Shown here: in pieces, positions 25,103 through 32,000 of the stretch
Numbering within the stretch: position 1 is the stretch's first letter
Layout of the letters: each line of letters starts with the position of its first letter
Origin: Candidatus Saccharimonadota bacterium
GTDB taxonomy: Bacteria; Patescibacteriota; Gracilibacteria; BD1-5; UBA6164
NCBI GenBank assembly: GCA_004563595.2
Contig: CP042461.1
Span: 420,001 to 452,000, forward strand
DNA length: 32,000 nucleotides
Direction of reading: 5' to 3'
Program-made: the position numbers and the translations under genes
Notes under the pieces: model-generated
Databases searched by the model: none
Seen by the model: the letters and a program-made list of their open reading frames with translations, nothing else
Told to the model about the DNA's origin: nothing

Positions 25103-26077
25103 ATGAATTTTACACAAATCAAATTAGAAGAAATTTTAGAAGCAATGAAAAGTTTTGAAGATATTATAAAAACTACACCTTTGGAGTATAATAAATATTT
25201 ATCTCATAAATATAAATCAACTATTTATCTTAAAAGAGAAGATTTGCAAGTTACAGGATCTTTTAAAATAAGGGGGGTATTAAATTTTATTAACAATAAC
25301 AAACTGCATTGCATTGAAAGATGAGTAGTATGCGCCTCAGCATGAAATCATTCCCAATGAGTAGCTTTGATGTGTAGGAAATTTAAAATTTTTTGAGACA
25401 TTTTTTTACCTATAAATACTCCAAGTTATAAGGTTGATAAAACGATACAATATTGAGGAGATTTTATAAAGGTACATCAAGTAGGATCTGATTTCGACTT
25501 TTCTTATAATCAGGCTAAATGTTTTTCTCAAAATAATGAAAGTGTTTTTATTCATCCCTTTGATGATAGAGATATTATAGTTTGACAATCCACAGTATGA
25601 TACGAAATTTTTAGTGATACATCAATTACTGACAATATAGATTTTATAGTTTGTCCTATTTGATGAGGGTGATTAATCTCTTGAATTATAGAATCTGCTA
25701 AGCTTTTTTCTCAAAGTACTAGAATACTTTGATGTGAGCCTGAGTGAGCTTCTTCAATGAAAAAAAGTATAGAAGAATGAAAGGTTGTGAAATTAAATAA
25801 AATTGATGTATTTATTGATTGAGTTAGCGTCAAAGAAGTATGAAATTATAATTTCAATATTTGTAAAAATTATAATTTAAAAATAGAATTATCAAATTTG
25901 AACTCATTATTAAAAACGATTTTTGATATTTATGAAAAGACCAATATTTCAATGGAATTAGCCAGCGCAATGACGGTTGATATACTTAATAATATTTCAG
26001 ATAAAATAAAGTGAAAAACAATTGTGTTAATAATCTCATGATGAAATATTGATATGAATAAATTGTATTCTTTGTAG
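25103..26077 (+). CDS. Fold-type-II PLP enzyme, threonine/serine ammonia-lyase-like, without a regulatory ACT domain (324 aa)
   Basis: SFKIRG (PLP lysine), ASAGNHSQGVA and the CPIGGGGLISG tetraglycine loop (three of its four Gly are TGA; the third is GGG) are present. Confidence 0.85.
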
Positions 26078-26193
26078 TCCCTTATTTTTTTATATTGCTT
26101 AGTGTTTATGTATCATTAAGTTTTTCCTGATTATTAAAAAATAAGTGCAATTTAAATTTTGTTGGTTAGTTTTGACTCCCTTACTTTTACAAG

Positions 26194-26221
26194 TTGACAA
26201 AAATCAGTTTCTTTATAAAAT
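26194..26221 (+). promoter_or_regulatory. Candidate promoter of the thrS leader
   Basis: TTGACA (26194-26199), a 16-nt spacer, then TAAAAT (26216-26221). Confidence 0.45.
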
Positions 26222-26248
26222 ACTTTTATTAGTTTCTAATAAGGACAT

Positions 26249-26302
26249 ATGAGCCTCGCACAACTTGAAACCATAACAGGTACCACTCTTACTTTTCAGT
26301 AG
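26249..26302 (+). CDS. Candidate thrS leader peptide MSLAQLETITGTTLTFQ (17 aa, 5 Thr)
   Basis: AAGGA lies 3 nt upstream of ATG 26249. Thr codons are at 26270, 26276, 26282, 26285 and 26291. The TAG stop at 26300-26302 lies inside hairpin segment A. Confidence 0.5.
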   Translation: MSLAQLETITGTTLTFQ

Positions 26303-26366
26303 AGACTTTTTGTGTAAATAAAAATTTAAAAAACAAAAACTCTACTGATTCTAGTAGAGTTTTTTT
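26297..26366 (+). promoter_or_regulatory. Attenuator: competing antiterminator (A:B) and terminator (B:C) hairpins
   Basis: Segment A is cagtagag..ttttt (26297-26311), B is aaaaactctactg (26335-26347) and C is agtagagttttttt (26353-26366). B pairs perfectly with C (12 bp, followed by a T-run) or with A (8+5 bp with a 2-nt bulge). Confidence 0.55.
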
Positions 26367-26370
26367 AATT

Positions 26371-26475
26371 ACTCCCCCTGCCTTTCAGGCATCCCCCTCC
26401 ATGAGGGGGAACTAAGATTTTCATTGAATTAGATTCTCCCTCTTGGAGGGAGATGTCCTTTAGGACAGAGGGAGT
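26371..26475. repeat. GC-rich nested-palindrome element, copy 1 (105 nt, thrS 5' UTR)
   Basis: Two inverted ~48-nt units, each with sub-hairpins (gcct-ttc-aggc; ccccctc-cat-gaggggg; tctccctc-ttg-gagggaga; gtcct-tt-aggac). The element is closed by actccccctg/cagagggagt. The 10- and 23-nt cores are identical to copy 2. Confidence 0.85.
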
Positions 26476-26505
26476 TTACAACAATATATACTAAACAAAC
26501 AAAAA

Positions 26506-28269
26506 ATGAACATAGAAACAAAGAGGCATTCATTGGCTCATATCATGGCTCAAGCTGTAAAAGACTTATATCCAGATGTAAAAGTAGCAATAGGACCGGA
26601 TACTGATGATGGATTTTATTATGATTTTGATTTTGGAGAAGTAGAATTTTCTGATAAAGAATTAAAGAACGTAGAGAAAAAAATGAAAAAAATTGTTTCT
26701 CAAAATCAATTTTTTGAGCAATTTAACCTTCCCGTTGATGAAGCTATTTCAAAATTAGAATCTCAGGGTGAGGTATTTAAAGTGGAACTTGCTAAAAAAC
26801 TGAAATCAGAAGGGGAAACAGAGCTTTCTTTTTATAAAAATATTTCTCAACAATGAGATGAAAAATTTGTAGATATGTGCAGAGGTCCTCATGTATCAAA
26901 AATGAGTGAGCTCGATGCAAATTCATTTAAACTTGCAAGAGTAGCTGGAGCTTATTGGCTTGGGAATAGTGATAATGCACAACTCACAAGAATTTACGCA
27001 TACGCATTTAATGATAGAGCTGAGCTTGATGTACATCTTAAAATGCTTGAAGAAGCAAAAAAAAGAGATCATAGAATACTCTGAGCAAAGCTTAAGCTAT
27101 TTACTATTTCTGACCTTATTGGTCCAGGTCTTCCTCTTATGCAACCAGCAGGAATGGTAATAAGACAAGAAATTGAAGATTATTTATGGGAGTTACATAA
27201 AGGGAAAGGATATGATAGAGTATGGTCTCCTCATATTGCAAAAGAATCTTTGTATGAGACATCAGGTCATGCTGCAAAGTTCTGAGATGAATTATTTAAA
27301 GTTCAAGGGAAAGAAGATAAATTTATCTTAAAACCTATGAACTGTCCTCATCATATGCAAATTTTTGCTGATAATCAGTTTAGTTATAGAGATATGCCAG
27401 TCAGATATTTCGAACCTGCAACAGTATATAGAGATGAGAAATCAGGACAATTATCAGGTCTTACAAGAGTAAGGGCTATTACTCAAGATGATGGACATTT
27501 ATTCTGTAGAGTTGATCAAATCAAAGATGAGGTAAAATCAATTACTGATATCATTAAAGAATTTTATACAACTATTTGAATGACAGAGGATTATTGGGTA
27601 TCACTTTCAGTAAGAGGAGATGATAAATCTATCTATCTTTGAGGGGATGATGTATGGGAAAAAGCTGAAGCTGCATTAGAAGCTGCTTCAAAAGAAAATG
27701 ATCTTCCATACAAAAGAGTGGAATGAGAAGCTGCTTTTTATGGACCAAAATTAGACTTTATGTTCAAAGATGCTATTGGAAGAGAATGGCAACTAGCTAC
27801 TATTCAATGTGATTTCAATCTTCCTGAAAGATTTAATCTTGCATTTACAAACAAAGAGGGTGAAAAAGAAAGACCAGTAGTAATCCATAGAGCTATCTCT
27901 GGTTCATTAGAAAGAGGTATGGGAGTATTTATAGAACACTTTGCTGGTACTTTCCCATTATGGATGGCTCCAAGACAAGTAAAAATAGTTCCAGTTTCAG
28001 ATGTTTTCTTTGACTATGCTGAAAAAGTAGAAAAAGAACTTAAAAATGCATGAATCAGAGTGACTGCTGACTATGCTTCTGATGGACTCAATAAAAAAGT
28101 AAGAAATGCAGAAAAAATGCACAATAATTATATCTTAGTTCTCTGAGAGCAAGAAGAAACAAATAATTCTGTTTCAGTAAGAAACTATAAAACAAAAGAT
28201 CAAACAGTTGTAGGTTTAGAAGAGTTTAAAACTATGATTTTGGATGAGATTAAAGAGAGGAGGTTGTAG
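26506..28269 (+). CDS. thrS: Threonine--tRNA ligase lacking the N-terminal TGS domain (587 aa)
   Basis: Four track ORFs in one frame are joined by TGA. Motifs [11 protein letters not shown] (editing domain HxxxH), [21 protein letters not shown](TGA)[38 protein letters not shown] and [10 protein letters not shown] are present. Confidence 0.97.
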
Positions 28270-31468: not shown

Positions 31469-32000
31469 ATGATTTATGATGTTGTAATAGTTTGAGCATG
31501 AGCTGCTGGTTTATTTGCTTGAATAAGTCTTGATAAAAAATTAAAAAAAATAGTTTTAGAAAAAAATGAGAAGCCTTGAATAAAGGTTTTATTATCATGA
31601 TGAGAGAGGGCGAATGTTTCAAATATGGATATTGATCCAGAAAGGGACTATTTTACTCAAAACAAAAAATTTTTACTGAGTATATTTTCAAAGTATACAA
31701 ACTGGGATATTATGAGTTTTTTTTCTGAAAATTGAGTAAGTATAGTGGAGGAAGATAGATCGAGGTTGATTTTAGAAAGCTGAGATAGTAAAGAGTTGCT
31801 CGCTTGTTTATTGAAAAAGGTGAAAGAAAATAATTGTGATGTGAAGTGTGGGGATTGAGTGGAGAAGATAGAAAAAACTCCCCCTGTCCTAAAGGACATC
31901 CCCCTCCATGAGGGGGAACTTTGTTCTTACCCCCCTCATGGAGGGGGGATTAAGGGGGGAGTATTTACCATCACAACATCATCATGACAAAAATATCAAG
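31469..32000 (+). CDS. HI0933/BaiN-like FAD-dependent oxidoreductase (partial; runs off the window end)
   Basis: MIYDVVIVGAGAAGLFAG is a Rossmann GxGxxG motif with two TGA Gly. It continues ..IVLEKNEKPGIKVLLSGGERANVSN... The frame is open to nt 32000. Confidence 0.85.
31877..31963. repeat. GC-rich nested-palindrome element, copy 2 (87 nt, in frame inside the flavoprotein CDS)
   Basis: actccccctg-tcctaaaggac-atccccctccatgagggggaact, a spacer, then an inverted partial unit ccccctcatggaggggggattaaggggggagt. It translates as TPPVLKDIPLHEGELCSYPPHGGGIKGGV without a stop. Confidence 0.85.

What the first reader, a model, noticed from the sequence alone, without database searches (positions are those of the whole stretch)
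26194..26366. Thr-codon-rich leader ORF with mutually exclusive hairpins upstream of thrS: candidate ribosome-mediated attenuator
Downstream of a TTGACA-16-TAAAAT promoter lies a 17-codon ORF, MSLAQLETITGTTLTFQ, in which 5 of the last 11 codons are Thr. Its TAG stop (26300-26302) sits inside segment A (cagtagagacttttt). Segment B (aaaaactctactg) can pair with A, or with the near-copy C (agtagagttttttt). The B:C pairing forms a hairpin followed by a T-run, ~140 nt upstream of the thrS ATG. A ribosome that reaches the stop would mask A and allow the B:C terminator. Stalling at the earlier Thr codons would free A to form the A:B antiterminator. This is the pheST/thr-operon logic applied to thrS, which is otherwise known to use a T-box (Firmicutes) or a translational operator (E. 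coli). I am not aware of such a mechanism being described in CPR bacteria.
Basis: inference. Interest (0 to 1): 0.75.

Follow-up and report, generated by a model that had tools for sequence, protein, structure and literature searches.

The report
Threonine-sensing leader attenuator before thrS
A short threonine-rich reading frame with two mutually exclusive RNA hairpins sits in front of the threonyl-tRNA synthetase gene, and the same design recurs in at least 50 related Gracilibacteria and SR1 genomes, so it is very probably a classical ribosome-sensed switch in a bacterial group where none had been reported.

Summary
At 26194-26366 there is a promoter (TTGACA-16-TAAAAT), a 17-codon ORF MSLAQLETITGTTLTFQ with 5 Thr, and a segment B that pairs either with A (-15.7 kcal/mol) or with C plus a T-run (-14.0).

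In this one sequence that is only mildly unusual (z = -2.5). Comparison with relatives settles it.
- At least 50 of 81 thrS loci (window plus 80 GTDB species, ThrRS 57-80% identical) carry the same arrangement.
- The promoter sits at a fixed distance from the leader start.
- Thr is 28.7% of leader residues, against 4.5% in ThrRS.
- The stop codon lies in or at the edge of segment 2, and a terminator follows.
- The antiterminator covaries with the terminator arm: 0 of 20,000 permutations reach the observed energy, and 82.9% of cells pair against 49-64% in slid controls.
- Every metagenomic leader hit with enough downstream sequence (8 of 8) precedes thrS.

Rfam 15 has no matching family, and I found no report of such an element in candidate phyla radiation (CPR) bacteria.

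Verdict: a real, conserved leader-peptide transcription attenuator of thrS. It is a new member of a known kind (pheST/trp/thr type), not a new mechanism. No experiment has tested it. The role of an invariant RNA block in codons 3-8 is unexplained.

The parts
26194..26221 (+). Sigma-70-type promoter: -35 TTGACA (26194-26199), 16-nt spacer, -10 TAAAAT (26216-26221). The inferred transcription start is near 26228.
   Evidence: Best promoter-like site in the 4-kb scan. In relatives the TTGACA-16-TAtAnT promoter is conserved, and the -10 ends at a median of 27 nt before the leader start codon.
26228..26248 (+). Short 5'UTR of the leader with an SD-like AAGGA at 26241-26245.
   Evidence: Sequence. 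The motif TAAYAAGG(C/A)A is conserved before the leader start in the AT-rich clade.
26249..26302 (+). Leader ORF of 17 codons plus TAG, encoding MSLAQLETITGTTLTFQ. Thr codons are at 26270-72, 26276-78, 26282-87 and 26291-93.
   Evidence: Homologous leaders M-x-L-A-Q-L-x-T-(T/I)-T-T... occur in at least 50 of 81 thrS loci. Thr is 28.7% of leader residues against 4.5% in ThrRS. ACN triplets make up 28.7% in frame 0, against 3.6% and 12.9% in the other frames.
26256..26272 (+). Near-invariant nucleotide block T.GCA..ACTTG..AC (codons 3-8). Positions 26258-26263 can pair with 26310-26315, acting as a candidate segment 1.
   Evidence: Invariant columns in alignment A1. Codon-level test: Ala is always GCA (35/35) and Leu is CTT in 37/42, while the encoded residues at neighbouring codons vary. 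The pairing appears in the fold. Its role is unresolved.
26286..26293 (+). Segment 1b (CTCTTACT), the 5' arm of a weak local hairpin with 26298-26304.
   Evidence: -4.0 kcal/mol. The equivalent hairpin around the stop codon is 84.3% paired, and 5 of its 8 pairs change on both sides, in alignment A4, which was fitted to this structure.
26296..26315 (+). It contains the leader stop codon.
   Evidence: Pairs with 26333-26348 (-15.7 kcal/mol). In relatives the stop codon lies in or at the 5' edge of this segment.
26333..26348 (+). It is shared by the antiterminator (with segment 2) and the terminator (with segment 4).
   Evidence: Covariation with segment 2: cognate -11.56 against permuted -7.32 +/- 0.56 kcal/mol, 0 of 20,000 permutations. 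In A4, 82.9% of cells pair against 49-64% in slid controls, and 0 of 500 shuffles reach the observed score.
26352..26366 (+). This is the 3' arm and U-tract of the intrinsic terminator.
   Evidence: 13-bp hairpin, -14.0 kcal/mol. All 45 leader-bearing loci first detected have a terminator, at -9.6 to -25.5 kcal/mol. The helix is 95.7% paired in A4, and 9 of its 14 pairs change on both sides. Covariance model R1 scores the window at 61.5 bits, E = 1e-7.
26368..26480 (.). GC-rich imperfect palindromic repeat inserted between the terminator and thrS. It is not part of the attenuator, but it belongs to the read-through 5'UTR.
   Evidence: Strong hairpin. Sub-threshold Rfam matches, far below the gathering scores, go only to plant microRNA-precursor hairpin families. 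A second copy lies at 31875-31972.
26506..28269 (+). thrS, the regulated gene (587 aa, read with TGA as Gly).
   Evidence: Pfam tRNA-synt_2b, HGTP_anticodon and tRNA_SAD. 57-80% identical to ThrRS of 80 Gracilibacteria, SR1 and other CPR species.

Best explanation
This is a ribosome-mediated (leader-peptide) transcription attenuator that sets thrS transcription according to the supply of charged tRNA-Thr.

Proposed sequence of events:
1. Transcription starts near 26228 and a ribosome initiates at 26249.
2. If Thr-tRNA is plentiful, the ribosome runs to the TAG at 26300. There it covers segment 2 (26296-26315), so segment 3 (26333-26348) stays free. Segment 3 pairs with segment 4 as soon as segment 4 is made, and the 13-bp hairpin plus U-tract (26335-26366) releases RNA polymerase before thrS.
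3. If Thr-tRNA is scarce (low Thr or too little ThrRS), the ribosome stalls at Thr codons 8-13 (26270-26287). Segment 2 stays exposed and pairs with segment 3 (16 bp) before segment 4 exists. The terminator cannot form, and polymerase reads through the inserted palindrome into thrS.

The result is homeostatic feedback on ThrRS, as at E. coli pheST.

Shown here:
- the anatomy of the element;
- conservation of the ORF, its Thr codons, the promoter and the terminator;
- covariation of both alternative helices;
- exclusive association with thrS.

Inferred, not shown:
- that the ORF is translated;
- that transcription and translation are coupled;
- the stall sites;
- the actual response to Thr-tRNA.
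For: (1) Recurrence.
- 45 of 81 thrS loci have a Thr-rich short ORF plus terminator by a motif-guided search.
- L049 and L045, L005, L006 and L014 add five more.
- A generic search gives 37/77 on the sense strand against 1/77 on the antisense strand.
- The set includes SR1 HOT-345 (L076) and L077, whose sequences are quite different (MQQLTTTTSTTTD) but whose architecture is the same.

(2) Regulatory codons.
- Thr is 28.7% of 673 leader residues against 4.5% in ThrRS.
- ACN triplets are enriched in frame 0 only.
- The first Thr codon is ACC or ACG in 35/42 leaders, although these are 16% of Thr codons in thrS.

(3) Promoter. TTGACA-16-TAtAnT is conserved, and the -10 ends at a median of 27 nt before the leader start codon.

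(4) Antiterminator.
- The alignment-free cognate versus non-cognate test, on 19 representatives with different stems, gives -11.56 against -7.32 +/- 0.56 kcal/mol, with 0 of 20,000 permutations reaching the cognate value.
- On an alignment fitted to the opposite (terminator) state, 82.9% of cells pair against 48.8-63.8% when slid. 8 pairs and 34 cells change on both sides, and the covariation score is 0.234 against 0.152 +/- 0.012.

(5) Terminator and local hairpin: 91.7% paired, 14 pairs with double changes.

(6) The stop codon lies in or at the edge of segment 2 in nearly all representatives.

(7) Specificity.
- Of the metagenome contigs returned for the conserved 15-base pattern (the scan stopped at its 120-record limit), 10 carry a Thr-rich leader (one more, L158, has a single Thr). 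All 8 of those, L158 included, with enough downstream DNA are followed by thrS within 110-550 nt.
- No other such element occurs in the 32-kb window.

(8) Masked folding of the window's leader behaves as the model requires.

(9) No Rfam family, including T-box, matches the window or 38 related loci.
Against: - There is no experimental or transcriptomic evidence of any kind.
- In the window the full-length leader at equilibrium is bistable (-26.6 against -25.5). With a ribosome masked at Thr10-13, equilibrium favours the terminator. The model therefore works only kinetically, with A:B forming before C is made.
- The segment-1:2 pairing in the window is weak, so an untranslated leader would read through. 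This differs from trp.
- The sequence is AT-rich and low in complexity, so it offers many alternative pairings.
- About 30 of 81 loci lack the element.
- Two oral Gracilibacteria (L040, L048) keep the hairpins but have lost most Thr codons. The structure can therefore persist without obvious Thr sensing.
- The SD-like motif is weak or absent in the GC-richer clades.
- The invariant RNA block in codons 3-8 is not explained by the model.
Confidence: 0.85

Rival explanations
1. The hairpin plus T-run is an ordinary, possibly bidirectional, terminator or an isolated structural element. The short ORF and the A:B complementarity are chance products of AT-rich sequence, or of a tandem duplication of a hairpin.
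For: The single-sequence folding z-score is only -2.49. The simple scanner calls the hairpin on the minus strand, because it has an A-tract on one side and a T-tract on the other. Segment 1b/2a resembles 3/4, as a duplicated hairpin would.
Against: At least 50 related loci have the same ORF, Thr codons, promoter spacing, terminator and covarying antiterminator, against 1 of 77 in the reverse-complement control. The upstream gene ends 258 nt earlier, and a conserved promoter lies between it and the hairpin. No minus-strand gene converges on the hairpin.
Confidence: 0.02
2. The conserved RNA is sensed by a trans-acting factor rather than by a translating ribosome. The candidates are uncharged tRNA-Thr (T-box-like), ThrRS itself (as at the E. 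coli thrS operator) or another protein. On this view the ORF is incidental or secondary.
For: A block of near-invariant nucleotides in codons 3-8 is constrained at RNA level, not peptide level. The AT-rich clade has an extra long-range helix between the 5'UTR and the spacer, with compensatory changes. L040 and L048 keep the structure with few Thr codons. The first Thr codon is mostly ACC, which from my memory is the specifier codon of the B. subtilis thrS T-box.
Against: There is no T-box or other Rfam hit. The supposed 'anticodon-like' CTTGTAA is not conserved, because codon 7 varies between GTA, GAA, GGA, GAT, ATG and AAC. Thr codons come in in-frame runs of 3-8, against the single specifier codon of a T-box (from memory). 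ACN periodicity is frame-specific. SR1 leaders share the Thr run and the hairpins but not the block. The stop codon is placed in segment 2 throughout the family.
Confidence: 0.06
3. The leader ORF acts mainly at the level of translation or as a peptide. It could be an upstream ORF that boosts or gates thrS translation by reinitiation or mRNA unfolding, a nascent-peptide arrest sequence, or a functional micropeptide. The terminator would then be constitutive or only leaky.
For: Leader ORFs have been proposed to raise translation of downstream genes (PMC4833913). thrS itself has no visible SD. The N-terminal motif LAQL is conserved.
Against: In the window 203 nt and a strong palindrome separate the leader stop from the thrS ATG, and in several relatives whole genes lie between them. 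Reinitiation is therefore implausible. Residues at codons 2, 5 and 7 vary freely while the nucleotides are fixed, which argues against peptide-level selection. The covarying antiterminator has no role in this model.
Confidence: 0.05

Closest known systems
E. coli pheST attenuator (pheM leader peptide)
   Same: An aminoacyl-tRNA synthetase gene is preceded by a short ORF rich in the cognate amino-acid codons, an antiterminator and terminator that exclude each other, and an intrinsic terminator. The logic is feedback through charging of the cognate tRNA (known from the literature; cited as the model for aaRS attenuators in PMC1262725).
   Different: The amino acid (Thr, not Phe), the phylum (CPR, genetic code 25) and the sequence all differ. 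The only Rfam trace is a sub-threshold Phe_leader hit (17.8 bits against a cut-off of 55, E = 2.7). The window's element has only a weak segment-1:2 pairing.
Enterobacterial thr operon leader (thrL, Rfam RF00506 Thr_leader)
   Same: A leader peptide with runs of Thr interspersed with Ile. From my memory E. coli thrL is [21 protein letters not shown]; here the pattern is ...TITTIITSIIK or ...TITGTTLT. Attenuation works through a terminator.
   Different: thrL controls the biosynthetic genes thrABC, not the synthetase. Thr_leader is absent from the window's Rfam hits, both at gathering score and among all hits up to E = 10. These organisms have reduced genomes, and the target here is thrS.
Streptomyces lividans thrL-thrS leader (PMC8079986), and Streptomyces trpS and leuS attenuators (PMC1262725)
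   Same: A leader peptide upstream of an aaRS gene, including thrS itself, outside the Proteobacteria.
   Different: The Streptomyces thrL has only two Thr codons. Its authors note that there is no clear U-rich terminator, and it rests on one RNA-seq data set. The present family has 2-8 Thr codons, a canonical terminator and comparative support for both helices.
T-box riboswitch upstream of thrS in Firmicutes
   Same: The same regulated gene and the same output (antitermination when tRNA-Thr is uncharged). A terminator and an antiterminator share a strand.
   Different: The sensor here is a translating ribosome, not direct tRNA binding. No Stem I, specifier loop or T-box sequence is present, and there is no RF00230 hit in the window or in 38 related loci.
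E. coli thrS translational operator
   Same: Autoregulatory control of thrS expression by an RNA element in the leader.
   Different: From the literature, the operator mimics the tRNA-Thr anticodon arm, sits next to the thrS ribosome-binding site and blocks translation when ThrRS binds. Here the element ends 139 nt before the ATG, carries a terminator and has no conserved anticodon-like loop.

Membership tests
Leader-peptide (ribosome-mediated) transcription attenuators (trp/his/phe/thr/pheST class) | A short ORF with a start codon downstream of its own promoter and upstream of the regulated gene | tested here: met
   ORF 26249-26302 lies downstream of TTGACA-16-TAAAAT. ATG or GTG start codons and a promoter at a fixed distance (median 27 nt from the -10) are seen across 44 loci.
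Leader-peptide (ribosome-mediated) transcription attenuators (trp/his/phe/thr/pheST class) | Enrichment of codons for the amino acid cognate to the regulated gene, in the leader's reading frame | tested here: met
   5 of 17 codons in the window. In the family, Thr is 28.7% of residues against 4.5% in ThrRS, and ACN makes up 28.7% in frame 0 against 3.6% and 12.9% in the other frames.
Leader-peptide (ribosome-mediated) transcription attenuators (trp/his/phe/thr/pheST class) | An intrinsic terminator (hairpin plus U-tract) between the leader ORF and the structural gene | tested here: met
   Window 26335-26366, -14.0 kcal/mol. Present in all 45 loci. 95.7% paired, with 9 of 14 pairs changing on both sides.
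Leader-peptide (ribosome-mediated) transcription attenuators (trp/his/phe/thr/pheST class) | An antiterminator that uses the 5' arm of the terminator and is conserved by covariation | tested here: met
   A:B is -15.7 kcal/mol. Permutation test: 0 of 20,000. 82.9% paired against 49-64% in slid controls, on an alignment fitted to the other state.
Leader-peptide (ribosome-mediated) transcription attenuators (trp/his/phe/thr/pheST class) | Geometry that lets ribosome position choose the fold: the stop codon in or next to segment 2, and regulatory codons far enough upstream to leave segment 2 free | tested here: met
   Segment 2 starts 9 nt before to 6 nt after the end of the stop codon in 17 of 19 representatives. 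The first Thr codon is a median of 10 codons before the stop. Masked folds behave as the model requires.
Leader-peptide (ribosome-mediated) transcription attenuators (trp/his/phe/thr/pheST class) | A segment 1:2 (anti-antiterminator or pause) hairpin that gives termination when the leader is not translated | tested here: inconclusive
   The window has only a 6-bp outer pairing and a -4.0 kcal/mol local pairing, and neither competes with A:B at equilibrium. Longer helices with compensatory changes occur in the GC-richer clade. The cognate versus non-cognate test is weak, with a median rank of 17 of 45.
Leader-peptide (ribosome-mediated) transcription attenuators (trp/his/phe/thr/pheST class) | Read-through increases in vivo when the cognate charged tRNA is limiting, and this depends on translation of the leader | not testable with these tools
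   This needs Term-seq, reporter or in-vitro coupled assays. The organisms are uncultured or episymbiotic.
Rfam RF00506 Thr_leader (enterobacterial thrL) | A match to the family covariance model at its gathering score | tested here: not met
   No hit at gathering score in the window or in 19 leader-bearing loci. The family is absent even from the E <= 10 list for 26000-26600.
T-box leader (Rfam RF00230) | Stem I with a specifier loop and the conserved T-box sequence in an antiterminator bulge; a match to the covariance model | tested here: not met
   No T-box hit in the window at gathering score or at E <= 10, nor in 38 related loci.
E. coli-type thrS translational operator | Hairpins that mimic the tRNA-Thr anticodon arm, placed next to the thrS ribosome-binding site | tested here: not met
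   The element ends 139 nt upstream of the thrS ATG in the window. The only anticodon-loop-like string (CTTGTAA) is not conserved, because codon 7 varies.

The most novel reading that the evidence does not exclude
The element may be more than a textbook attenuator. Three observations are not needed by the ribosome-only model:
- a nucleotide block in leader codons 3-8 (T.GCA..ACTTG..AC) that is invariant at RNA level but not at peptide level;
- a clade-specific covarying helix between the 5'UTR and the spacer;
- structure that persists in lineages that have lost the Thr codons.

Together these could mark a second input, such as a bound protein (ThrRS?), tRNA or ribosome-loading element. The family would then be a composite sensor specific to code-25 CPR bacteria. 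It may also be the first of a wider set of leader-peptide switches that replace T-boxes in these reduced genomes.
Probability: 0.12. Interest if true: 0.75.

Novelty: new member of a known kind. Interest (0 to 1): 0.55.

Why it matters
Very few cis-regulatory RNAs are known in the candidate phyla radiation, whose members are mostly uncultured episymbionts with tiny genomes. My full-text searches found no report of transcription attenuation in them.

- **What it implies about these cells.** A leader-peptide attenuator conserved across Gracilibacteria and SR1 implies that they couple transcription to translation closely enough for ribosome position to steer RNA folding. It also implies that they monitor tRNA-Thr charging.
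- **A third strategy for thrS.** Known controls of thrS are the T-box in Firmicutes and the translational operator in E. coli. This adds a well-supported third route.
- **A check on the genetic code.** Several leaders carry an in-frame TGA before the Thr codons, so they work only if TGA is read as a sense codon.
- **A practical tool.** The covariance model built here (R1) and the motif can be used to annotate thrS leaders in metagenomes.

The mechanism itself is classical, so the gain is in taxonomic reach and annotation, not in principle.

Tried and rejected
- **Rfam.** At gathering score the window gives only a tRNA. At E <= 10 the intergenic region gives sub-threshold hits: plant microRNA-precursor hairpin families on the palindrome, and insignificant Phe_leader and PyrR hits on the leader.
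- **RNAalifold on the plain MAFFT alignment of whole leaders (A1).** It recovered only 4 terminator pairs, because stems of different length were out of register. I replaced it with alignment-free duplex tests and a covariance-model alignment.
- **Helix between the 5'UTR and the spacer.** It is real in the AT-rich clade but absent from the window (z = +0.98) and from other clades. It is therefore not part of the window's mechanism.
- **Segment-1:2 pairing as a conserved anti-antiterminator.** The cognate versus non-cognate test had no power, because the 5' strand is nearly invariant. I left this as inconclusive.
- **tRNA-Thr anticodon-loop mimic (CTTGTAA).** Rejected because codon 7 varies.
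- **Equilibrium folding of the full leader with ribosome masks.** It favoured the terminator for stalls at Thr10-13. This showed that only a kinetic (co-transcriptional) reading works, which one search then tested.
- **Metagenome pattern scan.** About 110 of the 120 hits were chance matches without a leader ORF. Only the hits with an ORF were used.
- **Literature.** The co-occurrence of 'thrS' and 'leader peptide' in a Vibrio fischeri paper was irrelevant.
- **Other attenuators in the window.** I looked for other amino-acid leader ORFs in the window's intergenic regions and found none.
Full report
**Context.** The window has 28% G+C and reads TGA as a sense codon. ORFs of at least 100 aa cover 43.8 kb under code 25 but only 6.5 kb under code 11. 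The gene at 26506-28269 is thrS, with Pfam class-II core, HGTP anticodon-binding and tRNA_SAD domains. Its closest relatives among 185,579 species genomes are Gracilibacteria MAGs, at up to 80% amino-acid identity when re-scored under code 25. The 428-nt gap upstream of thrS (26078-26505) is the longest intergenic region in the window. The gene before it (25103-26077) is a PALP-fold enzyme on the same strand.

**The observation.**
- The promoter is TTGACA (26194) - 16 nt - TAAAAT (26221), the best promoter-like site in the 4 kb scanned.
- The ORF runs from ATG 26249 to TAG 26300-26302 and encodes MSLAQLETITGTTLTFQ, with five Thr codons.
- Segment B (26333-26348) pairs either with A or with C.
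- A is 26296-26313. The A:B pairing is 16 bp with a 2-nt bulge, -15.7 kcal/mol.
- C is 26352-26364. The B:C pairing is 13 bp, -14.0 kcal/mol, followed by the T-run 26360-26366.

The minimum-free-energy fold of the whole leader contains A:B (-26.6 kcal/mol). Forcing the terminator costs about 1 kcal/mol (-25.5). Taken alone, the sequence is only modestly unusual: z = -2.49, and 3 of 200 shuffles fold as well.

**Comparative test.** I fetched thrS with 3-kb flanks from 80 species genomes and searched upstream of each.
- A first pass for ATG-initiated ORFs with at least 20% Thr gave a recognisable family: MRLAQLETITKTTLLKSK, MSLTQLGTTTTTITLLNQ, MSLAQLVTTTTNIF, MVAQLVTTTTNLTSS, MSLAQLDTTTTTTTSKN, and the SR1 form MQQLTTTTSTTTD.
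- Many of the nearest relatives use a GTG start, for example (M)NLAQLVTITTIITSIIK.
- With both start codons allowed, 45 of 81 loci have the leader followed by a hairpin plus T-run of -9.6 to -25.5 kcal/mol.
- A covariance model and a looser scan added L049, L045, L005, L006 and L014, giving at least 50.
- As a control I applied a generic rule: an ORF of 7-30 codons, at least 3 Thr within 5 residues, and a terminator within 150 nt. It hits 37 of 77 upstream regions on the sense strand and 1 of 77 on the reverse complement.

Thr makes up 28.7% of 673 leader residues, against 4.5% in the ThrRS proteins. ACN triplets are 28.7% in the leader frame, against 3.6% and 12.9% in the other two frames. 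The promoter is conserved as well: TTGACA, a 16-nt spacer and TAtAnT, with the -10 ending at a median of 27 nt before the leader start codon. The window has exactly that spacing.

**The alternative helices.** Terminator stems differ widely between lineages: CTCTACT, CTCTTATTT, CTTCTA, CGCTCCGC, CCCCTCCG, CTCTTGCC and others. In each lineage, a segment that overlaps or abuts the leader stop codon is complementary to the 5' arm of that lineage's own terminator.
- **Alignment-free test.** I took 19 representatives with distinct stems. The best duplex between the stop-codon region and the cognate terminator arm averages -11.56 kcal/mol. Permuted partners average -7.32 +/- 0.56, and none of 20,000 permutations reaches the cognate value.
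- **Alignment-based test.** I built a covariance model of the OFF state (local hairpin plus terminator; R1). It finds the window's element at 61.5 bits, E = 1e-7. On the resulting 38-sequence alignment the OFF-state pairs are 91.7% paired, and 14 pairs change on both sides. That alignment is fitted to the OFF state, so this result is expected to look good.
- **The more telling result.** The ON-state (antiterminator) pairs, to which the alignment was not fitted, are 82.9% paired. Slid controls give 48.8-63.8%. There are 8 pairs and 34 cells with changes on both sides, and the covariation score is 0.234 against 0.152 +/- 0.012 in shuffles (0 of 500).

Both mutually exclusive structures are therefore under selection.

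**Specificity.** I scanned the metagenome collection for the conserved block TAGCACAACTTGNNACC. Ten carry a Thr-rich leader ORF, and one more (L158) has a single Thr. Of these, all 8 with enough downstream sequence are followed by thrS within 110-550 nt. No other intergenic region of the window has a comparable ORF plus terminator. No Rfam 15 family reaches its threshold on the element, either in the window or in 19 leader-bearing loci. Nineteen thrS loci that lack the element show no T-box either.

**Mechanism.** The best explanation is classical ribosome-mediated attenuation.

I folded the window's leader with a ribosome footprint masked, and with the transcript ending at 26350, so that segment 3 had been made but segment 4 had not:

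| Ribosome position | Antiterminator A:B |
|---|---|
| none | forms, probability about 1 |
| stalled at Thr codons 8, 10, 12 or 13 | forms, probability about 1 (0.62 for the upper half at Thr13 with the longer footprint) |
| stalled at Thr15 | upper half lost |
| at the stop codon | abolished |

At full length and at equilibrium the picture is different. Stalls at Thr10-13 then favour the terminator. The switch can therefore only work kinetically, which is what is expected of attenuators. This remains an inference.

The window's candidate segment-1:2 pairings are weak: 26258-63 with 26310-15, and 26286-93 with 26298-304. An untranslated leader would therefore read through.

**What the model does not explain.** Codons 3-8 carry a nearly invariant nucleotide block, T.GCA..ACTTG..AC. 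The residues encoded at codons 2, 5 and 7 vary, yet Ala is always GCA (35/35; GCA is 39% of Ala codons in thrS) and Leu is CTT in 37/42 (27% in thrS). The constraint is therefore on the RNA, not the peptide. Candidate partners exist: GTTGTG just 3' of segment 2, and in the GTG-start clade a hairpin that would bury the start codon. None explains the invariance in all clades.

Other loose ends:
- The AT-rich clade also has a helix between the 5'UTR and the spacer, with compensatory changes. The window lacks it.
- Two oral Gracilibacteria keep the hairpins but have few Thr codons.
- The first Thr codon is ACC or ACG in 35 of 42 leaders, although these are the rare Thr codons in thrS (16%). This fits a sensitive stall site, but it could also reflect an RNA-level constraint.

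**Comparison with what is known.** Leader-peptide attenuation of aaRS genes is established for pheST. It has been predicted for Streptomyces trpS and leuS (PMC1262725) and for Bacillus hisS paralogues (PMC2965389). A thrL-thrS leader with two Thr codons and no clear terminator was reported from S. lividans RNA-seq (PMC8079986). Full-text searches found nothing on attenuators or leader peptides in Gracilibacteria, Patescibacteria or CPR.

The element meets every sequence-level criterion of the leader-peptide attenuator class that I could test, except a convincing 1:2 hairpin. It is not a member of the Rfam Thr_leader or T-box families. I therefore file it as a new member of a known kind.

**Verdict.** Confidence that this is a Thr-tRNA-sensing leader-peptide attenuator of thrS is about 0.85. 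The remaining doubt is about function in vivo and about the unexplained RNA block, not about whether the feature is real.

Noticed in passing
window 26368-26480 and 31875-31972; L004:2910-2936, L023:2463-2486: A GC-rich (about 55%) imperfect palindromic repeat of about 110 nt sits between the attenuator terminator and thrS. A second, related copy lies inside the ORF 31469-31999, which has an FAD/NAD-binding N-terminus, and the reading frame runs through it (...PPVLKDIPLHEGELCSYPPHGGGIKGGVF...). This recalls, from memory, the Rickettsia palindromic elements that insert in frame into genes. L004 and L023 carry 24-27 identical bases at the same spot upstream of thrS.
   Followed up: partly
L007, L011, L020, L021 (about 400-nt elements); L005:1290-2988, L006:1370-2988, L014:2390-2988, L045:2070-2991: The short stretch between the attenuator terminator and thrS looks like an insertion hot spot. 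Different relatives have repeat-rich elements of about 400 nt or one to three unrelated ORFs lodged there, which leaves the attenuator 0.5-1.7 kb from thrS.
   Followed up: partly
L001, L002, L004, L007-L011, L019, L025, L027, L033, L040, L080 (5'UTR and spacer of the leader): In the AT-rich clade the first bases of the transcript (ATATTTCTTAA) pair with TTAAGAAATAT in the spacer between segments 2 and 3. There are compensatory changes, for example TTTACTTTTTA with TAAAAAGTAA in L040 and GTTAATTTCTAA with TTAGAAATTA in L001. The window lacks this helix.
   Followed up: partly
window 26256-26272 and the aligned columns of A1: The nucleotide block T.GCA..ACTTG..AC in leader codons 3-8 is nearly invariant although the encoded residues vary. 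Ala is always GCA and Leu nearly always CTT. The constraint is at RNA level and its cause is unknown.
   Followed up: partly
L040:2798-2950 (Gracilibacteria HOT-871), L048:2871-2968 (GN02-872): These human-oral Gracilibacteria keep the promoter, hairpins and terminator, but their leaders have lost most Thr codons (MNLAQLMTIITKYNSIKK and MKPRRLMTIAMKIYSIGK). The sensor may be decaying or repurposed.
   Followed up: no
leaders of L019, L008, L025, L026, L045, L074: An in-frame TGA (GCA TGA CTT) sits at leader codon 5, upstream of the Thr codons. These leaders can work only if TGA is read as a sense codon (Gly, code 25), which gives an independent hint about the genetic code of these genomes.
   Followed up: no
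leader ORFs of the family, first Thr codon (window 26270-26272): The first Thr codon is ACC or ACG in 35 of 42 leaders, while these two codons make up only 16% of Thr codons in the thrS genes. In addition, Thr alternates with Ile (TITTIIT), as I recall from E. coli thrL.
   Followed up: partly
window 25103-26077: The gene immediately upstream of the thrS leader encodes a PALP-fold pyridoxal-phosphate enzyme with an SFKIRG-type motif, the fold that includes Thr/Ser dehydratases. I did not check whether this neighbourhood is conserved.
   Followed up: no
L026:1115-1208: The covariance model R1 hits (44 bits, E = 3e-4) a two-hairpin, terminator-ending element about 1.8 kb upstream of thrS. It is distinct from that locus's own thrS leader and has no Thr-rich ORF. 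It may be another attenuator-like leader for a different gene.
   Followed up: no
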